A DNA stretch of 64,000 nucleotides. Source: a virus. The notes beneath the pieces were generated by a model. It saw only the letters and a program-made list of their open reading frames with translations, ran no database searches and had not been told where the DNA came from. Every line of letters begins with the position of its first letter. Positions within the stretch are counted from its first letter, which is position 1. Positions 4,792 through 47,364 of the stretch are shown here, one piece after another. The position numbers and the translations under genes were made by a program. Location: IMG/VR virus record IMGVR_UViG_3300047357_000359, positions 1 to 64,000 of that record; one strand, 5' to 3'.

Positions 4792-4881
4792 TGGCGGAAG
4801 TGGTAGGATTCGAACCCACGGTAGAGTCACCCCTACGACGGTTTAGTAAACCGCTCCTTTAAACCACTCAGGCACACTTCC
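4792..4881 (-). tRNA. tRNA-Ser, anticodon ACT (A34)
   Basis: Acceptor GGAAGTG/CACTTCC, G73, encoded CCA, long variable arm, TTCGAAT T-loop, anticodon arm GCGGT-TTACTAA-ACCGT. Confidence 0.9.
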
Positions 4882-26229: not shown

Positions 26230-27189
26230 ATGGACGCACTCACCCTATGGATGGCAATCGGATTTCTTTTCGCGGCCTATTCAGTAATAGCAAATGATTC
26301 AGTACAAACACTAGGTACATGGATCGCAAGTAATAACGATAAATTCAATTGGAAAATTATGTGGGGGTGTGCAAGTGCAGTTCTCCTTTATACATTGTGG
26401 TACGGTTGGACAGTAAATGGTGGAGACATCAGTTACGGTAGACTTAACAAGATACCGTTCCAAGAAATACAATGGTACCATGCGGCGGCACCAGGACTAC
26501 TATTAATACTAACAAGAATTGGCGTACCAGTGAGTACGTCATTTTTAGTTTTAAGTGCCTTTGCAAGTACATTTGTATTAGAGAAGATGCTCGTAAAGAG
26601 TATGATGGGATATGCAGTCGCGGCTGTGGCGGCATATTGTATTTGGATAGTGGTTACTAAACTACTAGATGAAGCAAAGCCTGTTAAAGAAGAACATAAG
26701 AAAGCATGGCGTGTAGCACAATGGGTAACAACAGGCTTCCTGTGGTTTACTTGGCTCAGTCATGACATGGCAAACATTGCCGTGTTCCTACCTAGAGAGA
26801 TACCTTGGGACTTAATGGTTATTATCTCACTTGTATTTGTAGGCGGACTTGCTTATATGTTTAAAGAAGGCGGAGGTAAGATACAAAAGATTGTTATTGA
26901 AAAGCACAATACAAGATATGTTCGTAGTGCTACTATCATTGACGGTGTGTATTGGTTGATCCTTTGGTTCTTCAAAGAGTATAACGATATACCTATGTCG
27001 ACAACTTGGGTGTTCGTTGGACTATTATGTGGACGTGAACTTGCTATGGCAACTATGACAGGCAAGGAAAAGTTCAAGACAGTATTTCCACTTGTAACTA
27101 AAGACTTCATTAAGATGATGATTGGCTTGGGTGCTTCTGTGGGAGTAGTGTTAATGATACACTATGTTATCGTACCAAACGGATATTAA
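26230..27189 (+). CDS. PiT/PHO4-like inorganic phosphate transporter-related membrane protein
   Basis: Duplicated signatures ANDSVQ...GVPVSTS and HDMAN...PMSTT; multiple TMs. Confidence 0.7.
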   Translation: MDALTLWMAIGFLFAAYSVIANDSVQTLGTWIASNNDKFNWKIMWGCASAVLLYTLWYGWTVNGGDISYGRLNKIPFQEIQWYHAAAPGLLLILTRIGVPVSTSFLVLSAFASTFVLEKMLVKSMMGYAVAAVAAYCIWIVVTKLLDEAKPVKEEHKKAWRVAQWVTTGFLWFTWLSHDMANIAVFLPREIPWDLMVIISLVFVGGLAYMFKEGGGKIQKIVIEKHNTRYVRSATIIDGVYWLILWFFKEYNDIPMSTTWVFVGLLCGRELAMATMTGKEKFKTVFPLVTKDFIKMMIGLGASVGVVLMIHYVIVPNGY

Positions 27190-27557
27190 AGTTTAATTTC
27201 TGTTAAACCATTTTCCCTATCAAGGTATTTAAAATCTATCTTGGTAGGGTTATATTTTTGCAACCAATCAAATACTATATTAGGATCAAATACTCCGCAA
27301 GTATATACATCAAGTTGTATCATAGCAGGATCTGTTTCATCCCATGTGTGTATTATAACATGACTAGTTTCTATAATAGTAGCAACAGTCAACCCTCTAT
27401 TACCTTTCATATTACAATATTTGGCATATGGTCCCATTAGGATCTTCATACCTATTGCTTCTATCAAGGCTTTTACATCATTACTTGTAAGGGTTTCATC
27501 TGTTGGCGGATTAGTAACTTCCGCTCGAATTATCACATGTTTGTGAACTAACTGCAT
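27186..27557 (-). CDS. speD: S-adenosylmethionine decarboxylase proenzyme
   Basis: IIETSHVIIHTW.E...LDVYTCG. Confidence 0.85.
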   Translation of the reverse strand: MQLVHKHVIIRAEVTNPPTDETLTSNDVKALIEAIGMKILMGPYAKYCNMKGNRGLTVATIIETSHVIIHTWDETDPAMIQLDVYTCGVFDPNIVFDWLQKYNPTKIDFKYLDRENGLTEIKL

Positions 27558-27619
27558 TTATGTCAGAGTTATTTATAACAAAGTTCTAATAAATACTCAT
27601 ATTACTGAGAGGGAAAACG

Positions 27620-28414
27620 ATGATACCAGAACAAGGGATTATGACTATGAACTTCAAGCAAAGAAGTTTATTGTTTGCAAAAATAAGCCAAATTGCTTAC
27701 TTAAATAAAGCCAATGCTACAAAGCAGGCTAAAAAAATAGGTTTTACAACTGTAGAGTACTACGATGTAAAAGGAGCTCAATCTTACCGTTTTATGAATA
27801 AACGTGATTTAGTTATAGCTTGTAGGGGAACAGAGCCAACACAATATGCTGATATTAAAGCTGATGCCAATGCATTGCCAGTTATAGCAGAAACAGTTAG
27901 TAGAGTACACAAAGGATTCAAAGGGCAAGTAGACGAGCTATGGCCAGCTATTAGAGAAGACTTAACTCGTACACAAAATAAAAATAAAGATGTGTGGTTT
28001 ACAGGACACAGTTTAGGAGCGGCAATGGCAACTATTATGGCTAGTCGTTGTATGTTCTTTGAGCTAGTACCTAACCCAGAAGAACTTTACACATACGGAT
28101 CACCAAGAGTAGGTTGGAAAGGTTACGTTGATAGTTTAGGCATTACCCATCATCGTTGGAAGAACAATAACGATATAGTAACAACTGTTCCTCTTGCAAT
28201 TATGGGTTTCAAACATCACGGAACTATGCACTACCTAAACAGTTATGGAAATGTACGTAGACCTACTGGTTGGCAAATGATTAAAGATAGATTACGTGGC
28301 ATGTGGACAGGAATCAAAAAAGGAAAAATAGATAACTTTTCAGATCATTTGATTCATAACTACATTGAACATTTACAAAACTACAAAGACGGAAAAGAAA
28401 ACCCACAAAAATAA
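27620..28414 (+). CDS. Class 3 lipase
   Basis: RGTE, VHKGF, TGHSLGAA, YTYGSPRVG, NNDIV..VP, DH. Confidence 0.9.
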   Translation: MIPEQGIMTMNFKQRSLLFAKISQIAYLNKANATKQAKKIGFTTVEYYDVKGAQSYRFMNKRDLVIACRGTEPTQYADIKADANALPVIAETVSRVHKGFKGQVDELWPAIREDLTRTQNKNKDVWFTGHSLGAAMATIMASRCMFFELVPNPEELYTYGSPRVGWKGYVDSLGITHHRWKNNNDIVTTVPLAIMGFKHHGTMHYLNSYGNVRRPTGWQMIKDRLRGMWTGIKKGKIDNFSDHLIHNYIEHLQNYKDGKENPQK

Positions 28415-28417
28415 AAT

Positions 28418-28606
28418 ATGACTCGTAAAACAAATACCATGTTGATAGGCCTACTTGGTACTATACTTCTAGGCTTAGCTTCATGGACATTGATTACATT
28501 GATGGAGTTACAGATACTAGTTAGTATGATTGAACAAGACCTAATAAGTATTGACAAACAGTTTGGTCGTGTGTACAACTTTATAGATAGTATTAGACAA
28601 CGTTAA
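28418..28606 (+). CDS. Small membrane protein
   Basis: TM helix plus short coil. Confidence 0.6.
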   Translation: MTRKTNTMLIGLLGTILLGLASWTLITLMELQILVSMIEQDLISIDKQFGRVYNFIDSIRQR

Positions 28607-28608
28607 GT

Positions 28609-28682
28609 TGGCATAGGTGGAGGGAATCGAACCCCCATTAACTGGTTTGGAATCAGTTGTGTTACCATTACACCACACCCAT
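28609..28682 (-). tRNA. tRNA-Trp (CCA)
   Basis: Acceptor ATGGGTG/CACCTAT, G73, encoded CCA, anticodon loop TTCCAAA. Confidence 0.9.
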
Positions 28683-28719
28683 AAAAAAAGCCCCTAATAA
28701 AATTAATTACTAGGGGCTT
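28683..28719 (-). terminator. Intrinsic terminator directly upstream of tRNA-Trp (attenuator)
   Basis: AAGCCCCTAGTAA-TTAATT-TTATTAGGGGC-T7, abutting tRNA position 1. Confidence 0.85.
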
Positions 28720-28748
28720 CGCAATATAACTTTTTTTAGAAAGTCACA

Positions 28749-28802
28749 TCAAGACATACCCCTCAAGGGCCAACATAATTGTGTTCTGATAGTCTTTGAC
28801 AT
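28749..28802 (-). CDS. Putative leader peptide MSKTIRTQLCWPLRGMS (one Trp codon)
   Basis: 17-codon ORF with AGGA SD between the promoter (TTGACA-N17-TATATT, about 28838-28866) and the terminator. Confidence 0.65.
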   Translation of the reverse strand: MSKTIRTQLCWPLRGMS

Positions 28803-28862
28803 GTTTGAAATTTTCCTGTGTTCTTAGTTATACATATAATATAACATCTGTATTTAGTGTTG

Positions 28863-29243
28863 TCAACCTTTTATTTTAGATTTATAATCTTTTATTGCAG
28901 ATTTAATTGCATCTTCGGCTAGAACTGAACAATGTATTTTAACTGGCGGTAATGCAAGTTCTTCTACAATGTCCATATTCTTTACTGCTGATGCTTCGTC
29001 TAGTGTCATACCTTTAACCATCTCAGTTACTAAACTTGAACTTGCTATTGCACTACCGCAACCATAAGTTTTAAATTTAGCATCTGTTATTATACCTTCT
29101 TCAACTTCTATCTGTAGACGCATAACATCACCACATGCTGGTGCACCTACCATTCCTGTTCCTATATTATCTTTCTTTGGATCAAATGTTCCGACGTTGC
29201 GTGGGTTTTCGTAATGGTCAAGTACCTTTTCAGAGTATGCCAT
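28863..29243 (-). CDS. iscU: Fe-S cluster scaffold IscU
   Basis: MAYSEKVLDHYENPRNVG, GAPACGDVM, FKTYGCGSAIASSS, LPPVKIHCSVLAEDA. Confidence 0.97.
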   Translation of the reverse strand: MAYSEKVLDHYENPRNVGTFDPKKDNIGTGMVGAPACGDVMRLQIEVEEGIITDAKFKTYGCGSAIASSSLVTEMVKGMTLDEASAVKNMDIVEELALPPVKIHCSVLAEDAIKSAIKDYKSKIKG

Positions 29244-29286
29244 ATTAGCCTCGTGTAGTTATACTACATCTATTTATAACTTATAT

Positions 29287-29386
29287 TGGCTCTGGGGGAA
29301 GGACTCGAACCTCCACGATAAATAATTTGCCGTCATTTACCACACGAGAAACAATCGTGCGTGTCTACCAATTTCACCACCCCAGA
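29287..29386 (-). tRNA. Atypical 100-nt tRNA-Asn (GTT) with very long variable arm
   Basis: Acceptor TCTGGGG/CCCCAGA, G73, CCA; D-arm GTGAAATTGGTAGACAC; anticodon arm CACGA-TTGTTTC-TCGTG; 28-nt variable region; T-arm GGAGG-TTCGAGT-CCTTC. Confidence 0.85.
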
Positions 29387-29392
29387 TTATTC

Positions 29393-30223
29393 TTATACTT
29401 TGTTAATCTTTTCTAGTGCAGGAATCATACGTGTTATACCTATGCCTCCGCCTACTCTTTGAAAGAAGTCAAACTCTAAGAACTTTTCTAGTTCCGCTTC
29501 AACTCTTTCCTTACCGAATAGTTTGAATAGTAACTCTGAATAAGCACCGTCTGTAATACTATGGAATGTATCACGCATCATATCAACATCACATGAACGT
29601 TCTGCTGATCCAATAGTTTCCATACCACCTAGTATAACGTCCATCTTCTTTGCAGTATTTCCGTCATCGTTTCTAGCCATGTTCCAGAAAGGTGATGTTA
29701 GTTCAGGGAAGTTTGTAATAAGTGTTTGACCAAACTCTTTTTCCATTGCAAGTTCGTGTTCTGCTTCCATTTCTGTATCAGCACTTAGTCCAAAGTGTTG
29801 TTGCCATTCAGCATAAGTCTTTTCTGTAATGTTGCCAAAGCCTAAGTATTCACATAGTTCATACTCCATTGCTTTTAGATCATCTACATTACCTGGCATT
29901 TCAAATTCAAACATTGGAAATATTATATCATGTCTGCCTGGTATTGCGTTTGGTTCCTGTCTATAGGAAGTGGAGACACAAAAAAACCCCTTACTATCGG
30001 GGCTACTTAATAATTCATGTTCTAACCACATCTGGCCTGTTTGCGGCAATGGCCAAACCTGGCCTGCGTAATTGTATGTTGCTACATTGAATGGATCTTC
30101 ACATGCGGCAAGTATGCTTAGTCTGTTTTGGGTATGGACTTCTAAAAATCCTTTATCCAAAAAAAATGACCTTAAAAGGCCAACTGTCTTCGTAAATTTA
30201 TTTGGGGATATCAACTGCGTCAT
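29393..30223 (-). CDS. Class IIb aminoacyl-tRNA synthetase paralogue (AsnRS/AspRS-like), catalytic domain only
   Basis: Motif 1 LRSFFLDKGFLEVHT, LPQTGQMWLE, motif 2 SYRQEP...RH...FPMFEFE, ETIGSAER, motif 3 GGGIGITR; no N-terminal OB-fold. Confidence 0.85.
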   Translation of the reverse strand: MTQLISPNKFTKTVGLLRSFFLDKGFLEVHTQNRLSILAACEDPFNVATYNYAGQVWPLPQTGQMWLEHELLSSPDSKGFFCVSTSYRQEPNAIPGRHDIIFPMFEFEMPGNVDDLKAMEYELCEYLGFGNITEKTYAEWQQHFGLSADTEMEAEHELAMEKEFGQTLITNFPELTSPFWNMARNDDGNTAKKMDVILGGMETIGSAERSCDVDMMRDTFHSITDGAYSELLFKLFGKERVEAELEKFLEFDFFQRVGGGIGITRMIPALEKINKV

Positions 30224-30277
30224 TTTCTTTTTTTCCTTTTCATTAGTCAAAAAAAATTTGCTCAACAAGTGCCGAGC

Positions 30278-30448
30278 TTAATTTTCCTTCTCATTATTTA
30301 TCCTCGCGCCTCCTGTTTTGCCGCAATGCGGACAATGGAAAGTGTAACGTTCAATACGTAACTTTTCTTCCATTGTCGCATAGGTGAACCAGTTAGAACA
30401 ACTAGTGCAAGTTAAATGCCATATGATCTCTTTAACAGCATTAAACAT
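30278..30448 (-). CDS. Zinc-ribbon protein (56 aa, not in ORF track)
   Basis: MFNAVKEIIWHLTCTSCSNWF...FHCPHCGK. Confidence 0.7.
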   Translation of the reverse strand: MFNAVKEIIWHLTCTSCSNWFTYATMEEKLRIERYTFHCPHCGKTGGARINNEKEN

Positions 30449-43839: not shown

Positions 43840-46194
43840 ATGACAAACGGCTTGGGAATCCAAATCCAAAAAAGAGATGGGTCAAGTGTACCACTAGACA
43901 TCAATAAAATTCACTTTGTTGTAGAAGAAGCGTGTGAAGGACTAGCAGGAGTTAGTAGTAGTCAAATTGAAATGAATGCAAACATTCAATTCTATGACGA
44001 CATGAGTACAGCAGAGATTCAAGAAATCCTAGTTAAAAGTGCAAACGATTTAATTACATTAGAAAATCCTAACTATCAGTTTGTTGCGGCACGTTTATTA
44101 TTATACCCTATCTACAAAGAGTCATTTGGCCAATACAATCCTATTCCTTTAATTGATGTAATCAAACGTAACATTGACCGTGGTGTATACGATCCAGCTA
44201 TCTTAGAAAAGTATACCGAAGACGAACTTTCAACATTAAACAAATACATTAAGCATAAACGTGATGAGAACTTTACGTATGCAGGACTTCGTCAAGTAGT
44301 TGACAAGTACCTTGTACAAGATAGAAGCAGTGGTGACATTTATGAATCTCCACAAATGATGTACATGATGATCGCGGCAACATTGTTCGCAGAATATCCA
44401 GCACAATCACGTATGCAATATGTAAGGAGATACTACGATGCGACCTCCCTTTTTAAAATCAATATCCCGACGCCCGTTATGGCCGGCGTCCGCACACCTC
44501 TTAGACAATTTGCTTCTTGCGTACTTGTTGATAGCGATGATACCCTTAATTCCATTTTTAGTTCTGATATGGCTATTGGGCGTTATACCGCACAAAGAGC
44601 AGGAATAGGAATTAACGCAGGACGTATTAGAGCAGTAAACAGTAAAATTAGAGGTGGTGAAGTAGCACACACAGGTGTTGTCCCATTCCTAAAGAAGTTT
44701 GAAGCAACAGTACGTTGTTGTACACAAAATGGTGTACGTGGTGGTAGTGCAACTACACACTTCCCAATATGGCATTACGAAATTGAAGACATCCTTGTGC
44801 TAAAGAATAACAAAGGTACAGAGGATAACAGAGTACGTAAGTTAGATTATTCAATTCAGCTTAATAAAACTATGTATGAAAGATTATTATCCGGCGGCGA
44901 TATAACTTTGTTCTCGCCACATGAAGTGCCAGACTTATACGAAGCATTTTATTCAGACCAAGATAAGTTTGCAGAGTTGTATGCAAAATATGAACGTAGC
45001 AAAACATTACGTACAAAAACTATTTCAGCAATGGACTTGTTTAGTGCATTAATTAAAGAACGTGCAGAAACAGGACGTATCTATATTATGAATGTTGATC
45101 ATGCTAATACACACAGTTCATTTAAGGACACAGTTTACATGAGTAACTTGTGTCAAGAGATTACATTACCAACTAAGCCACTACAACACATTGACGATCC
45201 AGAAGGTGAAATTGCATTGTGTATTCTTAGTGCTATTAACGTAGGTAAAATTAACAATCTAGATGAACTAGAAGACTTGTGTGATATGGCAGTAAGAGCA
45301 TTAGATGAAATTATTGACTATCAGAAGTATCCAATTTTAGCCGCAGAAAAAAGTACTAAAGCAAGACGTAGCTTAGGTGTAGGTTACATTGGACTAGCAC
45401 ATTACCTAGCTAAGAATCAAGTTAAGTATAGCGACAAAAAAGCATTAACAAAAGTACACGAGCTAACAGAAGCATTTCAATATTATCTGTTACAAGCGTC
45501 AAACAATCTAGCTAAAGAAAAAGGCAAGTGTGAATATTTTGACCGTACTAAATATAGCGATGGAGTACTACCCATTGACACATATAAAAAGGACTTGGAT
45601 GACGTATGCAAGATTACACTAAAATATGATTGGGAGACTCTTAGATCTTCAATTGTTAAGGACGGACTTAGGCACTCAACGTTGTCCGCACAGATGCCAT
45701 CGGAAAGCAGTTCCATTGTGTCGAATGCCACAAACGGTATTGAGCCACCTAGAGGATTCTTGTCCATTAAGAAAAGCAAAAAAGGGCCTCTTAAGCAGAT
45801 TGTTCCACAGTATCAGTCATTAAAGAACTATTACACATTGCTATGGGATATGCCTAGCAACGAAGGCTATATTAACATAGTAGCAGTAATGCAAAAGTTC
45901 TTTGATCAAGCAATTTCAGGTAACTGGAGTTACAACCCAACACACTTTGAAAACAATGAAGTTCCAATGAGTGTAATGCTACAAGATATGTTAACTACAT
46001 ATAAGCTAGGTTGGAAAACTTCATACTACCAAAACACCTATGACTTCAAGTCTGATCCTAACGATTTAGAAGATGAACAAGAAGAAGTTAAGTTAGAAAG
46101 CCCTATTAACGGCTTTGAACCACAGATTGGACGTGCGGAGTTTAACGGCACAGACGATGAGTACGAAGAATATTGCGACAGTTGTGCAATTTAG
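43840..46194 (+). CDS. nrdA: Class Ia ribonucleotide reductase alpha subunit (ATP cone)
   Basis: KRDG ATP cone, PTP, QFASC, SNLCQE, MPSESSS..SNATNGIEP, KTSYY, C-terminal CDSC. Confidence 0.97.
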   Translation: MTNGLGIQIQKRDGSSVPLDINKIHFVVEEACEGLAGVSSSQIEMNANIQFYDDMSTAEIQEILVKSANDLITLENPNYQFVAARLLLYPIYKESFGQYNPIPLIDVIKRNIDRGVYDPAILEKYTEDELSTLNKYIKHKRDENFTYAGLRQVVDKYLVQDRSSGDIYESPQMMYMMIAATLFAEYPAQSRMQYVRRYYDATSLFKINIPTPVMAGVRTPLRQFASCVLVDSDDTLNSIFSSDMAIGRYTAQRAGIGINAGRIRAVNSKIRGGEVAHTGVVPFLKKFEATVRCCTQNGVRGGSATTHFPIWHYEIEDILVLKNNKGTEDNRVRKLDYSIQLNKTMYERLLSGGDITLFSPHEVPDLYEAFYSDQDKFAELYAKYERSKTLRTKTISAMDLFSALIKERAETGRIYIMNVDHANTHSSFKDTVYMSNLCQEITLPTKPLQHIDDPEGEIALCILSAINVGKINNLDELEDLCDMAVRALDEIIDYQKYPILAAEKSTKARRSLGVGYIGLAHYLAKNQVKYSDKKALTKVHELTEAFQYYLLQASNNLAKEKGKCEYFDRTKYSDGVLPIDTYKKDLDDVCKITLKYDWETLRSSIVKDGLRHSTLSAQMPSESSSIVSNATNGIEPPRGFLSIKKSKKGPLKQIVPQYQSLKNYYTLLWDMPSNEGYINIVAVMQKFFDQAISGNWSYNPTHFENNEVPMSVMLQDMLTTYKLGWKTSYYQNTYDFKSDPNDLEDEQEEVKLESPINGFEPQIGRAEFNGTDDEYEEYCDSCAI

Positions 46195-46260
46195 TACTTG
46201 ACAAATACATAAGACTAGTGTATATTAATAAATACGCTATTAGAGAAAAAAGAGAGAGAC

Positions 46261-47364
46261 ATGGCAAAGACAGTATTTAATCGTGAAGCTGTAGACTTCA
46301 CAAAGCAACATATGTTCTTCGGAGCAGATCAAAACACACAGAGATACGATACATTTCGTTTCCCTGTATTTGACAAACTTAACCAAACAATGCTTGGTTA
46401 CTTTTGGCGTCCTGAGGAAGTATCGTTACAAAAAGATAGAGCTGACTTCCAAAACTTTCGTCCAGAAGAAAAACACATTTTTACAAGTAACCTAAAGTAT
46501 CAAACACTACTAGATAGTGTACAAGGAAGAGGACCATGTCTTGCTTTCTTGCCTCATGTATCTTTACCAGAACTAGAAGGTTGTATTGTTACTTGGGACT
46601 TCTTTGAAACTATTCACTCACGTAGTTATACACACATTATGAAGAATGTATATCCTAATCCAAGTGAAGTATTAGATCATATTTTAAATGACGATGAAAT
46701 TATTAAACGTGCAGTTAGTGTAACTAAAAACTATGATGCATTTACAGGTGCGGCAGACGCATTCATTCATCGTAAAGAAGGAACCATGCGTGACGTTAAG
46801 AAAAAAATGTTCCTTGCTATGATGAACGTAAACATCTTAGAAGGATTACGTTTTTATGTTTCGTTTGCATGTACATTTGCATTTGGTGAGCTAAAGAAAA
46901 TGGAAGGCTCAGCAAAGATTATTAGTCTTATTGCTCGTGATGAAAGTCAACACCTTGCATTAAGTTCACACGTTCTTAAGAATTGGATGCGTGGCGATGA
47001 CGATCCAGAGATGGCTAAGATTGCAAAAGAATGTGAAGCAGAAGTTTATGAAATGTGGAAGGCATGTGTTAACGAAGAAAAAGCATGGGCTAAACATTTA
47101 ATGAAAGACGGATCAATTATTGGTCTGAACGAAAGACTGTTAGGCGATTACGTAGAGTACATTGCCAACCGTAGGCTTAAAGCATTAGGATACTCAACTA
47201 TCTTTGATGCATCATCAACCCAAAACCCGCTACCGTGGACACAACATTGGCTATCTAGCTCAGGCTTGCAAGTTGCACCTCAAGAGACAGAAGTTGAAAG
47301 TTATATCATCGGTGGGATTAAACAAGACGTGTCAACAGACAGTCTAAAAGGATTTAAACTATAA
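46261..47364 (+). CDS. nrdB: Class Ia ribonucleotide reductase beta subunit
   Basis: FWRPEE, LDSVQ, ETIHSRSY, LEG.RFYVSF, RDESQH, APQE.E..SY. Confidence 0.97.
   Translation: MAKTVFNREAVDFTKQHMFFGADQNTQRYDTFRFPVFDKLNQTMLGYFWRPEEVSLQKDRADFQNFRPEEKHIFTSNLKYQTLLDSVQGRGPCLAFLPHVSLPELEGCIVTWDFFETIHSRSYTHIMKNVYPNPSEVLDHILNDDEIIKRAVSVTKNYDAFTGAADAFIHRKEGTMRDVKKKMFLAMMNVNILEGLRFYVSFACTFAFGELKKMEGSAKIISLIARDESQHLALSSHVLKNWMRGDDDPEMAKIAKECEAEVYEMWKACVNEEKAWAKHLMKDGSIIGLNERLLGDYVEYIANRRLKALGYSTIFDASSTQNPLPWTQHWLSSSGLQVAPQETEVESYIIGGIKQDVSTDSLKGFKL

What the first reader, a model, noticed from the sequence alone, without database searches (positions are those of the whole stretch)
29287..30448. Minimal AsnRS-like enzyme without an anticodon-binding domain, paired with a giant-variable-arm tRNA-Asn: candidate self-contained synthetase/tRNA system
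Seen: a 276-aa class IIb synthetase catalytic core (motifs 1-3 intact, AsnRS-like LPQTGQMWLE and ETIGSAER) with no N-terminal OB-fold. Its stop is only 6 nt from a 100-nt tRNA. That tRNA has Asn hallmarks (U1-A72, G73, GUU anticodon) but a Leu-type D-arm, a 28-nt variable region (9-bp stem, 7-nt loop CGGCAAA), and U37-C38 where bacterial tRNA-Asn has A37 (t6A). A 56-aa Zn-ribbon gene lies just upstream. Established: tRNA-Asn is normally class I (short variable loop). Catalytic-only AsnRS paralogues are known as archaeal-type asparagine synthetases, and EpmA is a catalytic-only LysRS paralogue. Most alphaproteobacteria lack AsnRS and use ND-AspRS plus GatCAB. Inference: the enzyme may recognise this tRNA through its acceptor stem and long arm instead of the anticodon, giving an orthogonal, nuclease-evading Asn pathway. 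Alternatively the tRNA donates an amino acid for non-ribosomal chemistry, or acts as a decoy.
Basis: partly seen in the sequence, partly recalled or inferred. Interest (0 to 1): 0.88.

Follow-up and report, generated by a model that had tools for sequence, protein, structure and literature searches.

The report
Phage AsnRS-like enzyme with private tRNA
A marine phage carries a cut-down asparagine-tRNA-synthetase look-alike followed six bases later by a hybrid tRNA (leucine-type body, asparagine-type ends); the tRNA is never seen without the enzyme, yet the enzyme's bacterial relatives have no such tRNA and sit with late pyrimidine-synthesis genes, so the pair may not simply serve translation.

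Summary
Window 29393-30223(-) encodes a 276-aa class IIb synthetase core with no anticodon-binding domain. Six bases after its stop lies a 100-nt tRNA (29287-29386, -) with a GUU anticodon, U1-A72, G73, U37 and a 9-bp variable arm.

The pairing is far beyond chance:
- 79 of 83 testable phage loci with the enzyme have this tRNA 4-10 nt downstream; a further one has it 133 nt downstream.
- 68 of 68 testable long-arm tRNA(GUU) genes have the enzyme upstream.
- Covariation supports every arm.
- Cultured cyanophages P-SSM2, P-SSM5 and P-SSM7 carry the pair; in P-SSM2 it is the only tRNA.

This scan had flagged the pair before on other DNA.

The enzyme is not a reduced translation enzyme. Homologues 55-62% identical occur in Patescibacteria, Rickettsiales and Bacteroidota, without the tRNA. 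They often sit in operons with a DHO-dehydrogenase-like gene, OMP decarboxylase and a phosphoribosyltransferase. All eight host genomes tested lack PyrB, and six have PyrF. tRNA-linked and tRNA-less enzymes are almost identical at conserved sites.

Best reading (about 0.45): an asparagine-activating enzyme working on the 3' end of a private tRNA. Whether this feeds translation or pyrimidine synthesis is open. No biochemistry exists. The Zn-ribbon gene is not a conserved partner.

The parts
29393..30223 (-). 276-aa AsnRS-derived class IIb catalytic core (stop included), without an anticodon-binding domain; member of phrog_29758
   Evidence: ORF. Pfam PF00152 E 1.5e-16. phrog_29758 E 1.3e-128. 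AF2 model pLDDT 96.8. Best structural matches are AsnRS at Z 27-27.8. AsnRS-type QxxQ(M/L)(W/Y)LE signature.
29287..29386 (-). 100-nt chimeric class-II-shaped tRNA(GUU) with encoded CCA (29287-29289), 6 nt after the enzyme's stop
   Evidence: Rfam tRNA 44.7 bits. Own covariance model 103.4 bits. Covariation in all arms. U1-A72, G73 and GUU invariant in 45 distinct sequences.
29350..29352 (-). Anticodon G34-U35-U36. The loop is UUGUUUC, with U37 where tRNA-Asn normally has A37.
   Evidence: Rfam alignment and family alignment: GUU invariant; position 37 is U, A or C across the family.
29317..29341 (-). Variable-arm hairpin: 9-bp stem plus 7-nt loop CGGCAAA
   Evidence: Fold. The stem pairs covary or vary on one side (helix 4). 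Relatives have either this long form (loop with GCAA) or a shorter stem with a small loop.
30250..30277 (-). Terminator-like hairpin plus T-run between the Zn-ribbon ORF and the enzyme gene. It marks the upstream edge of the enzyme-tRNA transcription unit.
   Evidence: Consensus scan. RNA-library contigs from one study end at 30256 and 30269. This is a weak hint only.

Best explanation
This is a two-gene phage module.

The enzyme is a catalytic-core-only descendant of asparaginyl-tRNA synthetase. It most likely binds L-asparagine and ATP and makes asparaginyl-adenylate (inferred from the conserved AsnRS-type pocket and ATP motifs).

The tRNA is a chimera. Its body (D-arm, long variable arm) is of the tRNA-Leu type. 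Its ends are tRNA-Asn-like (U1-A72, G73) and its anticodon is GUU. It appears to be transcribed with the enzyme.

I think the two work together at the tRNA's 3' end, with the asparaginyl group passing between AMP and A76 in the enzyme's active site. The enzyme has no anticodon-binding domain, so it can read only the acceptor end.

What is shown: the anatomy, the near-obligate linkage, the covariation, presence in RNA libraries, and the family's link to pyrimidine genes in cells.

What is inferred: the amino acid, any contact between enzyme and tRNA, and the purpose. On purpose I lean slightly to a metabolic role over plain translation. In that role the tRNA carries asparagine into a pyrimidine-precursor reaction performed by this enzyme family.
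For: Linkage:
- Enzyme to tRNA: 79 of 83 testable phage loci have the tRNA 4-10 nt after the stop, counting one cut at a contig end. One more has it 133 nt later.
- tRNA to enzyme: 68 of 68 testable long-arm tRNA(GUU) genes have the enzyme upstream. The 9 pattern hits without the enzyme are ordinary 72-76-nt tRNA-Asn genes.
- The flanks differ from locus to locus, so the pair moves as a unit.
- P-SSM7, P-SSM2 and P-SSM5 carry it. It is P-SSM2's only tRNA.

The tRNA is real: 98% of cells paired, 18 pairs with changes on both sides, 0 of 500 shuffles as high.

Conservation pattern: U1-A72, G73 and GUU are invariant, while the anticodon-stem pairs all change on both sides.

Enzyme:
- Confident class IIb fold (pLDDT 96.8), nearest to AsnRS (Z 27-27.8).
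- AsnRS-type signature, with the motif-2 Arg, motif-3 Arg and the side-chain Arg of the SAER motif conserved.
- Canonical AsnRS is the nearest outgroup in the tree.

Expression hint: a metatranscriptome contig spans the enzyme, the tRNA and the start of the next gene (29088-30256). The scan found no terminator-like site between the enzyme and the tRNA.
Against: - No direct evidence that the enzyme touches the tRNA.
- Homologues in cells and in two huge phages work without such a tRNA. Three phage loci of the tRNA-linked clade have lost it.
- tRNA-linked enzymes show no added basic surface. They are very acidic (median pI 4.7, net charge -19). They differ from tRNA-less ones at only 7 mildly group-specific positions.
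- The motif-1 proline is absent.
- Contigs from RNA libraries cannot prove a single transcript or exclude carried-over DNA.
- The linkage could be partly transcriptional, if the tRNA has no promoter of its own, rather than catalytic.
Confidence: 0.45

Rival explanations
1. Orthogonal translation pair. The mini-enzyme charges only its private tRNA with asparagine through the acceptor end and long arm. The Asn-tRNA then decodes AAY codons on the ribosome, independently of host AsnRS or of ND-AspRS plus GatCAB.
For: - Canonical T-loop, G18G19, encoded CCA and invariant GUU.
- It often lies near phage tRNA clusters.
- The tRNA is never found without the enzyme.
- AsnRS-type pocket.
- From general knowledge: class II synthetases approach the tRNA from the variable-loop side. 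A long arm could therefore exclude full-length host enzymes yet fit a core-only enzyme.
Against: - A pyrimidine at position 37 in most sequences, and C33 in two, is odd for a decoder of A-starting codons.
- One phage contig has an ordinary tRNA-Asn(GUU) as well.
- The enzyme is essentially unchanged from cellular relatives that sit in pyrimidine operons and have no such tRNA.
- Asn codon use in the window is ordinary at 4.9%.
- The enzyme is very acidic.
Confidence: 0.2
2. tRNA-independent metabolic enzyme with a passenger tRNA. The enzyme does in phages what it does in cells, which is probably to supply the substrate of dihydroorotate dehydrogenase. The tRNA merely rides on its transcript and is charged by host enzymes, or is a processing or stability element.
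For: - Cellular and huge-phage homologues lack the tRNA.
- Catalytic residues are identical in both groups.
- A DHO_dh-like gene lies beside the enzyme in six phage loci.
- P-SSM2 also carries pyrE (PMC1079782).
- The scan found no promoter-like site placed to serve the tRNA on its own.
Against: - It is hard to explain why this odd tRNA is never found away from the enzyme (68 of 68).
- It is also hard to explain why the 4-10 nt spacing survives so many changes of flanks.
- There is no reason given for a passenger decoder to have a Leu-type body, a long arm and U37.
Confidence: 0.2
3. Asparagine synthetase of the archaeal AS-AR or AsnA kind. The core makes free asparagine from aspartate, ammonia and ATP, and the neighbouring tRNA-Asn simply uses it.
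For: - Same architecture as AS-AR (core only, about 290 aa).
- Structural Z 23-24 to AS-AR entries 3REU, 3REX and 3P8T.
Against: - The profile scores 31 bits to AS-AR against 61-62 to AsnRS/AspRS.
- NF005055 (asparagine synthetase A) scores 19 bits against a cut-off of 389.
- No AsnA Pfam match.
- The Asp-binding Lys of AspRS is Leu, as in AsnRS.
- Holder genomes G006, G007 and G008 already have AsnB. G004-G006 lack AsnRS, so they do not need free Asn for translation.
Confidence: 0.07
4. Regulatory or decoy RNA. The tRNA-like RNA binds the enzyme or a host factor (anticodon nuclease, AsnRS, GatCAB) to tune or protect it, without being aminoacylated.
For: - Relaxed positions 33 and 37.
- The long arm has a recurrent GCAA loop motif.
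Against: - The encoded CCA, the perfect acceptor stem and the strict conservation of the discriminator and first base pair point to use of the 3' end.
- Nothing points to a specific target.
Confidence: 0.08

Closest known systems
Asparaginyl-tRNA synthetase (class IIb), catalytic domain (e.g. PDB 8H53, 2XTI/2XGT, 1X54, 9SH8)
   Same: - Same fold (Z 27-27.8, rmsd 2.2-2.5 over about 250 residues).
- Motifs 2 and 3.
- AsnRS-type QxxQLYLE-like signature and side-chain Arg.
- Nearest outgroup in the tree.
   Different: - No OB-fold anticodon-binding domain.
- TIGR00457 scores 34.7 bits against a cut-off of 342.6.
- About 20% identity, and a very long stem branch.
- The motif-1 Pro is replaced by Gln.
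- Cellular members sit in pyrimidine operons, not in translation contexts.
Archaeal asparagine synthetase A (AS-AR; PDB 3P8T, 3REU, 3RL6, 1NNH)
   Same: Core-only AsnRS/AspRS paralogue of about 290 aa; Z 23-24.
   Different: - Much weaker sequence relation (31 bits against 61-62).
- Different phyletic logic: holders have AsnB and/or lack AsnRS.
- AS-AR has no linked tRNA.
EpmA/GenX (PoxA), the LysRS-like core that lysylates EF-P
   Same: Core-only class IIb paralogue that keeps the acceptor-binding face for a tRNA-shaped substrate; Z 24.
   Different: - NF006828 scores 17 bits against a cut-off of 264.
- The pocket is AsnRS-like, not LysRS-like.
- The partner here is an RNA, not EF-P.
GluQRS (YadB), the GluRS core without an anticodon domain that glutamylates queuosine of tRNA-Asp (from my own knowledge)
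   Same: A truncated synthetase paralogue whose substrate is still a tRNA, used for something other than standard charging.
   Different: It is class I, acts on the anticodon wobble base, and has no dedicated tRNA gene.
tRNA-dependent asparagine biosynthesis (ND-AspRS plus GatCAB; U1-A72 identity: PMC1635274, PMC2811023)
   Same: The phage tRNA keeps exactly the elements this pathway reads (GUU anticodon, G73, U1-A72), and they are invariant.
   Different: The body is class II with a large Leu-type D-loop, which may not suit GatCAB. Use by this pathway was not tested.
Bacterial class II tRNAs (Leu, Ser, Tyr) and phage tRNA-Leu
   Same: - D-arm nearly identical to a tRNA-Leu(UAG) of a related phage.
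- Long base-paired variable arm.
- tRNA-Leu genes are the best non-family hits of the model, at 57 and 48 bits.
   Different: - G73 instead of A73.
- U1-A72.
- GUU anticodon.
- Variable arm up to 9-10 bp.

Membership tests
Canonical AsnRS (TIGR00457 / NF003037) | Class II catalytic core with motifs 2 and 3 | tested here: met
   PF00152 E 1.5e-16. Motif-2 R88/E90 and motif-3 GGGIGxxR265 are conserved.
Canonical AsnRS (TIGR00457 / NF003037) | N-terminal OB-fold anticodon-binding domain | tested here: not met
   The protein starts at the catalytic core. The model aligns only to residues about 120-420 or 230-531 of AsnRS chains. No OB-fold Pfam hit.
Canonical AsnRS (TIGR00457 / NF003037) | Score over the curated family cut-off | tested here: not met
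   34.7 bits against 342.6; 33.3 against 414.
Canonical AsnRS (TIGR00457 / NF003037) | Asparagine-type amino-acid pocket | tested here: met
   The profile alignment to Brugia AsnRS puts QTGQMWLE on QSSQLYLE. AspRS has QSPQLY-KQ there. This is by sequence only.
Canonical AsnRS (TIGR00457 / NF003037) | Aminoacylates tRNA-Asn with Asn | not testable with these tools
   Needs an in vitro assay.
Archaeal asparagine synthetase AS-AR (NF005055) | Sequence membership | tested here: not met
   NF005055 scores 19.3 bits against a cut-off of 389. The profile scores 31 bits to 3P8T against 61-62 to AsnRS/AspRS.
Archaeal asparagine synthetase AS-AR (NF005055) | Occurs where AsnRS is present and no other Asn synthetase exists | tested here: not met
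   G004-G006 lack AsnRS. G006, G007 and G008 have AsnB.
AsnA (PF03590) | Pfam AsnA domain | tested here: not met
   Only PF00152 was reported at E <= 0.01.
EpmA/GenX (NF006828) | Sequence membership | tested here: not met
   17.1 bits against a cut-off of 264.
tRNA-Asn (bacterial) | GUU anticodon, G73, U1-A72 | tested here: met
   Invariant in 45 distinct sequences.
tRNA-Asn (bacterial) | Class I body (4-5-nt variable loop) and A37 | tested here: not met
   28-nt variable region and U37 in the window. Ordinary phage tRNA-Asn genes score only 46-56 bits with the family model, against 74 bits or more for family members.
Class II (long-arm) tRNA, Leu type | Base-paired long variable arm and 3-bp D-stem with a large D-loop | tested here: met
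   Helices 2 and 4. D-arm nearly identical to tRNA-Leu(UAG).
Class II (long-arm) tRNA, Leu type | A73 discriminator and a Leu anticodon | tested here: not met
   G73 and GUU are invariant.
phrog_29758 (phage family of unknown function) | Full-length profile match | tested here: met
   E 1.3e-128, profile positions 1-266 of 267.

The most novel reading that the evidence does not exclude
The enzyme family may be an unrecognised entry into pyrimidine synthesis. Asparagine is adenylated as in AsnRS. CO2 adds to the free alpha-amine to give the N-carboxyanhydride. The side-chain amide nitrogen then closes the ring to L-dihydroorotate. Together with AsnB this would replace CarAB, PyrB and PyrC.

In marine phages the private tRNA(GUU) keeps exactly the elements read by host ND-AspRS and GatCAB. 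It would serve as a dedicated carrier on which asparagine is built and handed to the enzyme. That would be tRNA-dependent pyrimidine-precursor synthesis during infection.

The chemistry is my inference. It rests on two things recalled from memory: the CO2 reactivity of aminoacyl adenylates, and the chemical cyclisation of N-alkoxycarbonyl-asparagine to dihydroorotate. It has not been tested.
Probability: 0.25. Interest if true: 0.95.

Novelty: new variant of a known kind. Interest (0 to 1): 0.8.

Why it matters
- A synthetase-like core with a co-inherited, purpose-built chimeric tRNA would be a natural example of a private enzyme/tRNA pair. It is abundant in the ocean: more than 587 IMG/VR hits and over 8000 protein clusters.
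- It is present in cultured cyanophages (P-SSM2, P-SSM5, P-SSM7), so it can be tested at the bench now.
- If the pair charges asparagine for translation, it would show that a class IIb core can work without anticodon reading. That would offer a compact orthogonal pair.
- If the family makes a pyrimidine precursor, it would fill a real pathway gap. Several bacterial lineages have PyrF but lack PyrB, and CarB and PyrC where tested.
- It would also reveal a new kind of phage auxiliary metabolic gene, and possibly a new non-ribosomal use of an aminoacyl-tRNA.

Tried and rejected
- **Zn-ribbon ORF (30278-30448) as a third partner:** rejected. Homologues lie near the enzyme in only 3 of 85 loci, and a terminator-like hairpin separates it from the enzyme.
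- **DNA search for the tRNA in cultured phage records:** no match. The protein search found the relatives instead.
- **ARAGORN alone:** unreliable here. It misses the long-arm forms or calls them Glu, Asp, Gly, Stop or Asn(att). I therefore built a covariance model.
- **The look-up of encoding contigs:** The contexts of the most distant metagenomic representatives (P0229, P0260, P0263 and others) were not seen. The listing of cluster members gave no organism names for them.
- **The search for related loci with the 70-sequence alignment:** A 13-sequence alignment worked.
- **Search for a tRNA-binding signature in tRNA-linked enzymes:** none found for extra basic charge or group-specific residues.
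- **Literature:** four full-text searches and three papers gave only the GenBank-style label 'tRNA ligase, T4-GC 194' (PMC3037559). There was no functional study and no paper on an asparagine-based or PyrB-less pyrimidine route.
- **Host of the window's phage:** not determined. Most large ORFs have no PHROG match, and the record is about 23% complete.
- **Not run:** Complex prediction, because I make no claim about protein-protein binding.
- **RNA-library contigs:** they show presence only. Parts of the stretch without cover carry no meaning.
Full report
**1. What is in the window**

On the minus strand, an ORF runs from 30268 or 30223 down to 29393. A tRNA follows at 29386-29287, 6 nt after the stop.

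The ORF matches only the class II (D, K, N) synthetase core, PF00152, at E 1.5e-16. It scores far below the curated cut-offs of every named family: asnS 34.7 against 342.6, asparagine synthetase A 19 against 389, EpmA 17 against 264. It is a full-length member of the phage family phrog_29758, whose function is unknown (E 1.3e-128).

The tRNA reaches 44.7 bits with Rfam's tRNA model. Its anticodon loop is UUGUUUC, giving GUU with U37. It folds with a 9-bp variable stem and the loop CGGCAAA. ARAGORN misreads it as tRNA-Glu.

A terminator-like hairpin (30277-30260) lies between the upstream 56-aa Zn-ribbon ORF and the enzyme gene, and it overlaps the alternative TTG start. Contigs from marine metatranscriptome libraries end at 30256 and 30269, and one of them runs through the enzyme, the tRNA and into the next gene (29088-30256). 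I therefore take the ATG at 30223 as the start (276 aa) and the enzyme plus tRNA as one transcription unit. The RNA evidence is weak because these are assembled contigs.

**2. The pairing is real and close to obligate**

Cultured cyanophages P-SSM7, P-SSM2 and P-SSM5 encode homologues 64-67% identical, annotated 'tRNA ligase'. Each is followed at once by an 85-88-nt tRNA(GUU).
- In P-SSM2 the GenBank tRNA feature is misplaced. The gene is at 162083-162168, directly after the ligase.
- It is the only tRNA in that 252-kb genome.

IMG/VR holds more than 587 relatives, and the protein database holds more than 8000 clusters.

Starting from the enzyme, I examined 85 phage loci. Two end at the gene and cannot be tested. 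Of the other 83:
- 79 have the tRNA 4-10 nt after the stop (one of these is cut by a contig end);
- one has it 133 nt later;
- three IMG/VR loci and two huge-phage genomes lack it, even when the whole record is searched.

Starting from the tRNA instead, I scanned for a pattern on its T-arm and acceptor strand and obtained 80 loci:
- 68 of the 68 testable long-arm tRNAs have the enzyme upstream;
- the 9 hits without the enzyme are ordinary 72-76-nt tRNA-Asn genes.

The flanking genes differ widely between loci, and the Zn-ribbon ORF recurs in only 3 of 85 loci. The two genes therefore travel together as a cassette.

**3. The tRNA is a working fold and a chimera**

In 45 distinct sequences, 98% of cells form standard pairs. 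Eighteen of 29 pairs change on both sides. No shuffle out of 500 reaches the observed values, and slid controls fall to 40-60% paired.

What is invariant: U1-A72, G73 and G34-U35-U36.

What varies:
- position 37 is U in most sequences, A in nine and C in two;
- position 33 is C in two;
- the variable arm is either a short stem with a small loop (82-86-nt genes) or 9-10 bp with a 7-nt loop containing GCAA (96-100 nt).

The best non-family hits of the covariance model are phage tRNA-Leu genes, at 57 and 48 bits against 74 or more for family members. Within one phage contig, the D-arm of the long-arm tRNA is almost identical to that of tRNA-Leu(UAG). Its first base pairs, its discriminator and its anticodon are those of tRNA-Asn.

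That same contig also carries an ordinary 76-nt tRNA-Asn(GUU) in its tRNA cluster. The long-arm tRNA is therefore not simply that phage's asparagine decoder.

**4. The enzyme**

The AlphaFold model is confident (pLDDT 96.8). Structural matches by Z-score:
- AsnRS, 27-27.8;
- archaeal AspRS, 26.5;
- GenX/EpmA, 24;
- archaeal asparagine synthetase, 23-24;
- LysRS, 23-24.

A family profile scores 61-62 bits to AsnRS and AspRS but only 31 bits to the archaeal asparagine synthetase.

In the profile alignment the family's PQTGQMWLE lies on AsnRS QSSQLYLE. AspRS has QSPQLY-KQ there, so the aspartate-binding Lys is Leu, as in AsnRS. The Arg of ETIGSAER lies on the side-chain Arg of AsnRS. Motif 2, motif 3 and an ACEDP segment at the position of the amino-group-binding loop are conserved. 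The motif-1 Pro is Gln.

By sequence, then, the pocket looks built for asparagine with its alpha-carboxylate facing ATP.

**5. Relatives in cells change the picture**

A scan of one genome per prokaryotic species found 332 relatives. The closest few (60-82% identical) are phage contigs binned into MAGs, and most of these carry the long-arm tRNA.

The rest, 55-62% identical, are in these groups, none of them with the long-arm tRNA:
- Saccharibacteria and other Patescibacteria, including complete chromosomes;
- Rickettsiales (Midichloriaceae, Candidatus Bandiella) and other alphaproteobacteria;
- Aureispira, Saprospiraceae and Chitinophagales;
- Weeksellaceae (Moheibacter).

Gene neighbourhoods:
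- In alphaproteobacteria the gene sits in operons with a diverged DHO-dehydrogenase-like gene, OMP decarboxylase, and a phosphoribosyltransferase or PRPP synthase.
- In Aureispira and Chitinophagales a full-length DHO dehydrogenase lies just upstream.
- In Patescibacteria the order Dus-enzyme-DnaX is conserved.

The same diverged DHO_dh-like gene also lies beside the enzyme and its tRNA in six phage loci (L083, L085, L094, L104, L238, L247). P-SSM2 carries pyrE (PMC1079782).

**6. Phyletic test**

All eight enzyme-bearing genomes tested lack PyrB. All 14 control genomes have it.

| Sample | Genomes lacking PyrB | Enzyme-positive genomes | Chance that all of these lack PyrB |
|---|---|---|---|
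| Family of G008 | 18 of 81 | 2 (both lack PyrB) | about 0.05 |
| Order of G006 | 18 of 101 | 3 (all lack PyrB) | about 0.005 |

Other genes in the enzyme-bearing genomes:
- Six of them have PyrF; in one it is adjacent to the enzyme. Two enzyme-negative, PyrB-negative relatives lack PyrF.
- G004, G006, G008 and G136 also lack CarB and a PyrC-type dihydroorotase.
- G006, G007 and G008 have AsnB. G004-G006 lack AsnRS and have GatB. The enzyme is therefore not needed as an asparagine synthetase, and it does not track with either route to Asn-tRNA.

The samples are small and many genomes are MAGs, so this is suggestive and not proof. Together with the operons, it points to a role in supplying the substrate of DHO dehydrogenase.

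**7. Evolution**

In a maximum-likelihood tree:
- The family is one clade on a very long stem, with canonical AsnRS as the nearest outgroup.
- The tRNA-linked enzymes form one marine-phage clade (SH-aLRT 97), nested among tRNA-less cellular enzymes. Their nearest cellular neighbours are the alphaproteobacterial operon enzymes.
- Two tRNA-less phage rows inside the clade look like secondary losses.

The tRNA was therefore added to an enzyme that already worked without it.

About 100 positions are at least 95% conserved across both groups. Only seven positions differ mildly between the groups, two of them in or next to the motif-2 loop (Q89/N, A93/P). The tRNA-linked enzymes are, if anything, more acidic (pI 4.7, net charge -19).

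**8. Reading**

The linkage in both directions is best explained if the tRNA needs the enzyme. The invariant acceptor end and the encoded CCA point to use of the 3' end. I put about 0.45 on the enzyme acting on this tRNA's 3' end, with asparaginyl transfer between AMP and A76 in either direction.

For the purpose, two versions compete.

Against it stand:
- U37 and C33;
- the co-resident ordinary tRNA-Asn;
- the unchanged enzyme;
- the pyrimidine context.

*Metabolic.* The family turns asparagine into dihydroorotate. I propose Asn-AMP, then CO2 capture to the N-carboxyanhydride, then ring closure by the side-chain amide. With AsnB this uses the same atoms as the CarAB-PyrB-PyrC route. This is my inference from chemistry recalled from memory.

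In phages the tRNA keeps exactly what ND-AspRS (GUU, G73) and GatCAB (U1-A72; PMC1635274, PMC2811023) read. It could then be a carrier on which host enzymes build asparagine for the phage enzyme. The weak points are:
- the unexplained Leu-type body;
- a D-loop that GatCAB may dislike;
- the lack of any assay.

A tRNA-independent enzyme with a passenger tRNA remains possible, at about 0.2.

**9. Standing**

The scan had already flagged this pair on other genomes. I re-tested the co-occurrence and the pyrimidine lead here, and added:
- the tRNA-first sampling;
- the phyletic test;
- the tree;
- the comparison of tRNA-linked and tRNA-less enzymes;
- the co-resident ordinary tRNA-Asn;
- the RNA-library evidence.

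In the literature held here I found only the annotation 'tRNA ligase' (PMC3037559) and no functional work.

Noticed in passing
window 4792-4881 (-); also L070:6703-6792, L293, L294, L295, L296: A 90-nt tRNA-Ser with anticodon ACU (A34) recurs in this phage group. An unmodified A at the wobble position is unusual outside tRNA-Arg(ACG).
   Followed up: no
L032:2567-2953, L035, L039-L041, L060, L061, L071, L072: ARAGORN calls tmRNA genes (marked tmRNA*, tags ending ...ALAA) close to the enzyme gene in several related phage contigs. These are phage-borne tmRNA-like genes.
   Followed up: no
L012:4495-4588, L075:4382-4475, L084:2855-2948: Unusually long (94-nt) tRNA-Ile(UAU) genes in phage tRNA clusters. 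They may hold an intron or a long arm.
   Followed up: no
L002 (AY939844.2 P-SSM2): The GenBank tRNA-Asn feature PSSM2_199 is placed at 164094-164179, inside a CDS. The real gene is at 162083-162168, right after the 'tRNA ligase'. It is the only tRNA of the genome.
   Followed up: yes
L004:3940-5502 (LR756501.1, 735-kb phage): In this huge phage the enzyme homologue (49% identical, no long-arm tRNA) is followed by a 520-aa RimK-like ATP-grasp protein and preceded by a family B DNA polymerase fragment.
   Followed up: partly
L099, L100, L109, L113, L120, L121, L127, L128, L164, L169 and others: The gene order Dus (tRNA dihydrouridine synthase family) - enzyme - DnaX is conserved across very diverse Patescibacteria. 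The two Patescibacteria genomes tested (G004, G005) lack PyrF. The enzyme's role there may differ from the pyrimidine-operon lineages, or may be tRNA-related.
   Followed up: partly
window 27186-29243: Auxiliary metabolic genes lie beside the pair: S-adenosylmethionine decarboxylase (27186-27557), a class 3 lipase (27620-28414) and an IscU Fe-S scaffold (28863-29243). Ribonucleotide reductase subunits lie at 43840-47364. P-SSM2 and P-SSM5 also have a lipase next to the pair.
   Followed up: partly
G006 (Midichloriaceae genome behind L150): This genome lacks AsnRS yet has two AsnB-type asparagine synthetase genes and the enzyme-PyrD-like-PRT-PyrF operon. It makes free asparagine that translation cannot use directly.
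   Followed up: partly
G282:C13:19003-19700: In one genome of the same order as G006 (Midichloriaceae), the enzyme gene is split and has internal stops (2 TGA, 1 TAA). It is probably a decaying copy.
   Followed up: no
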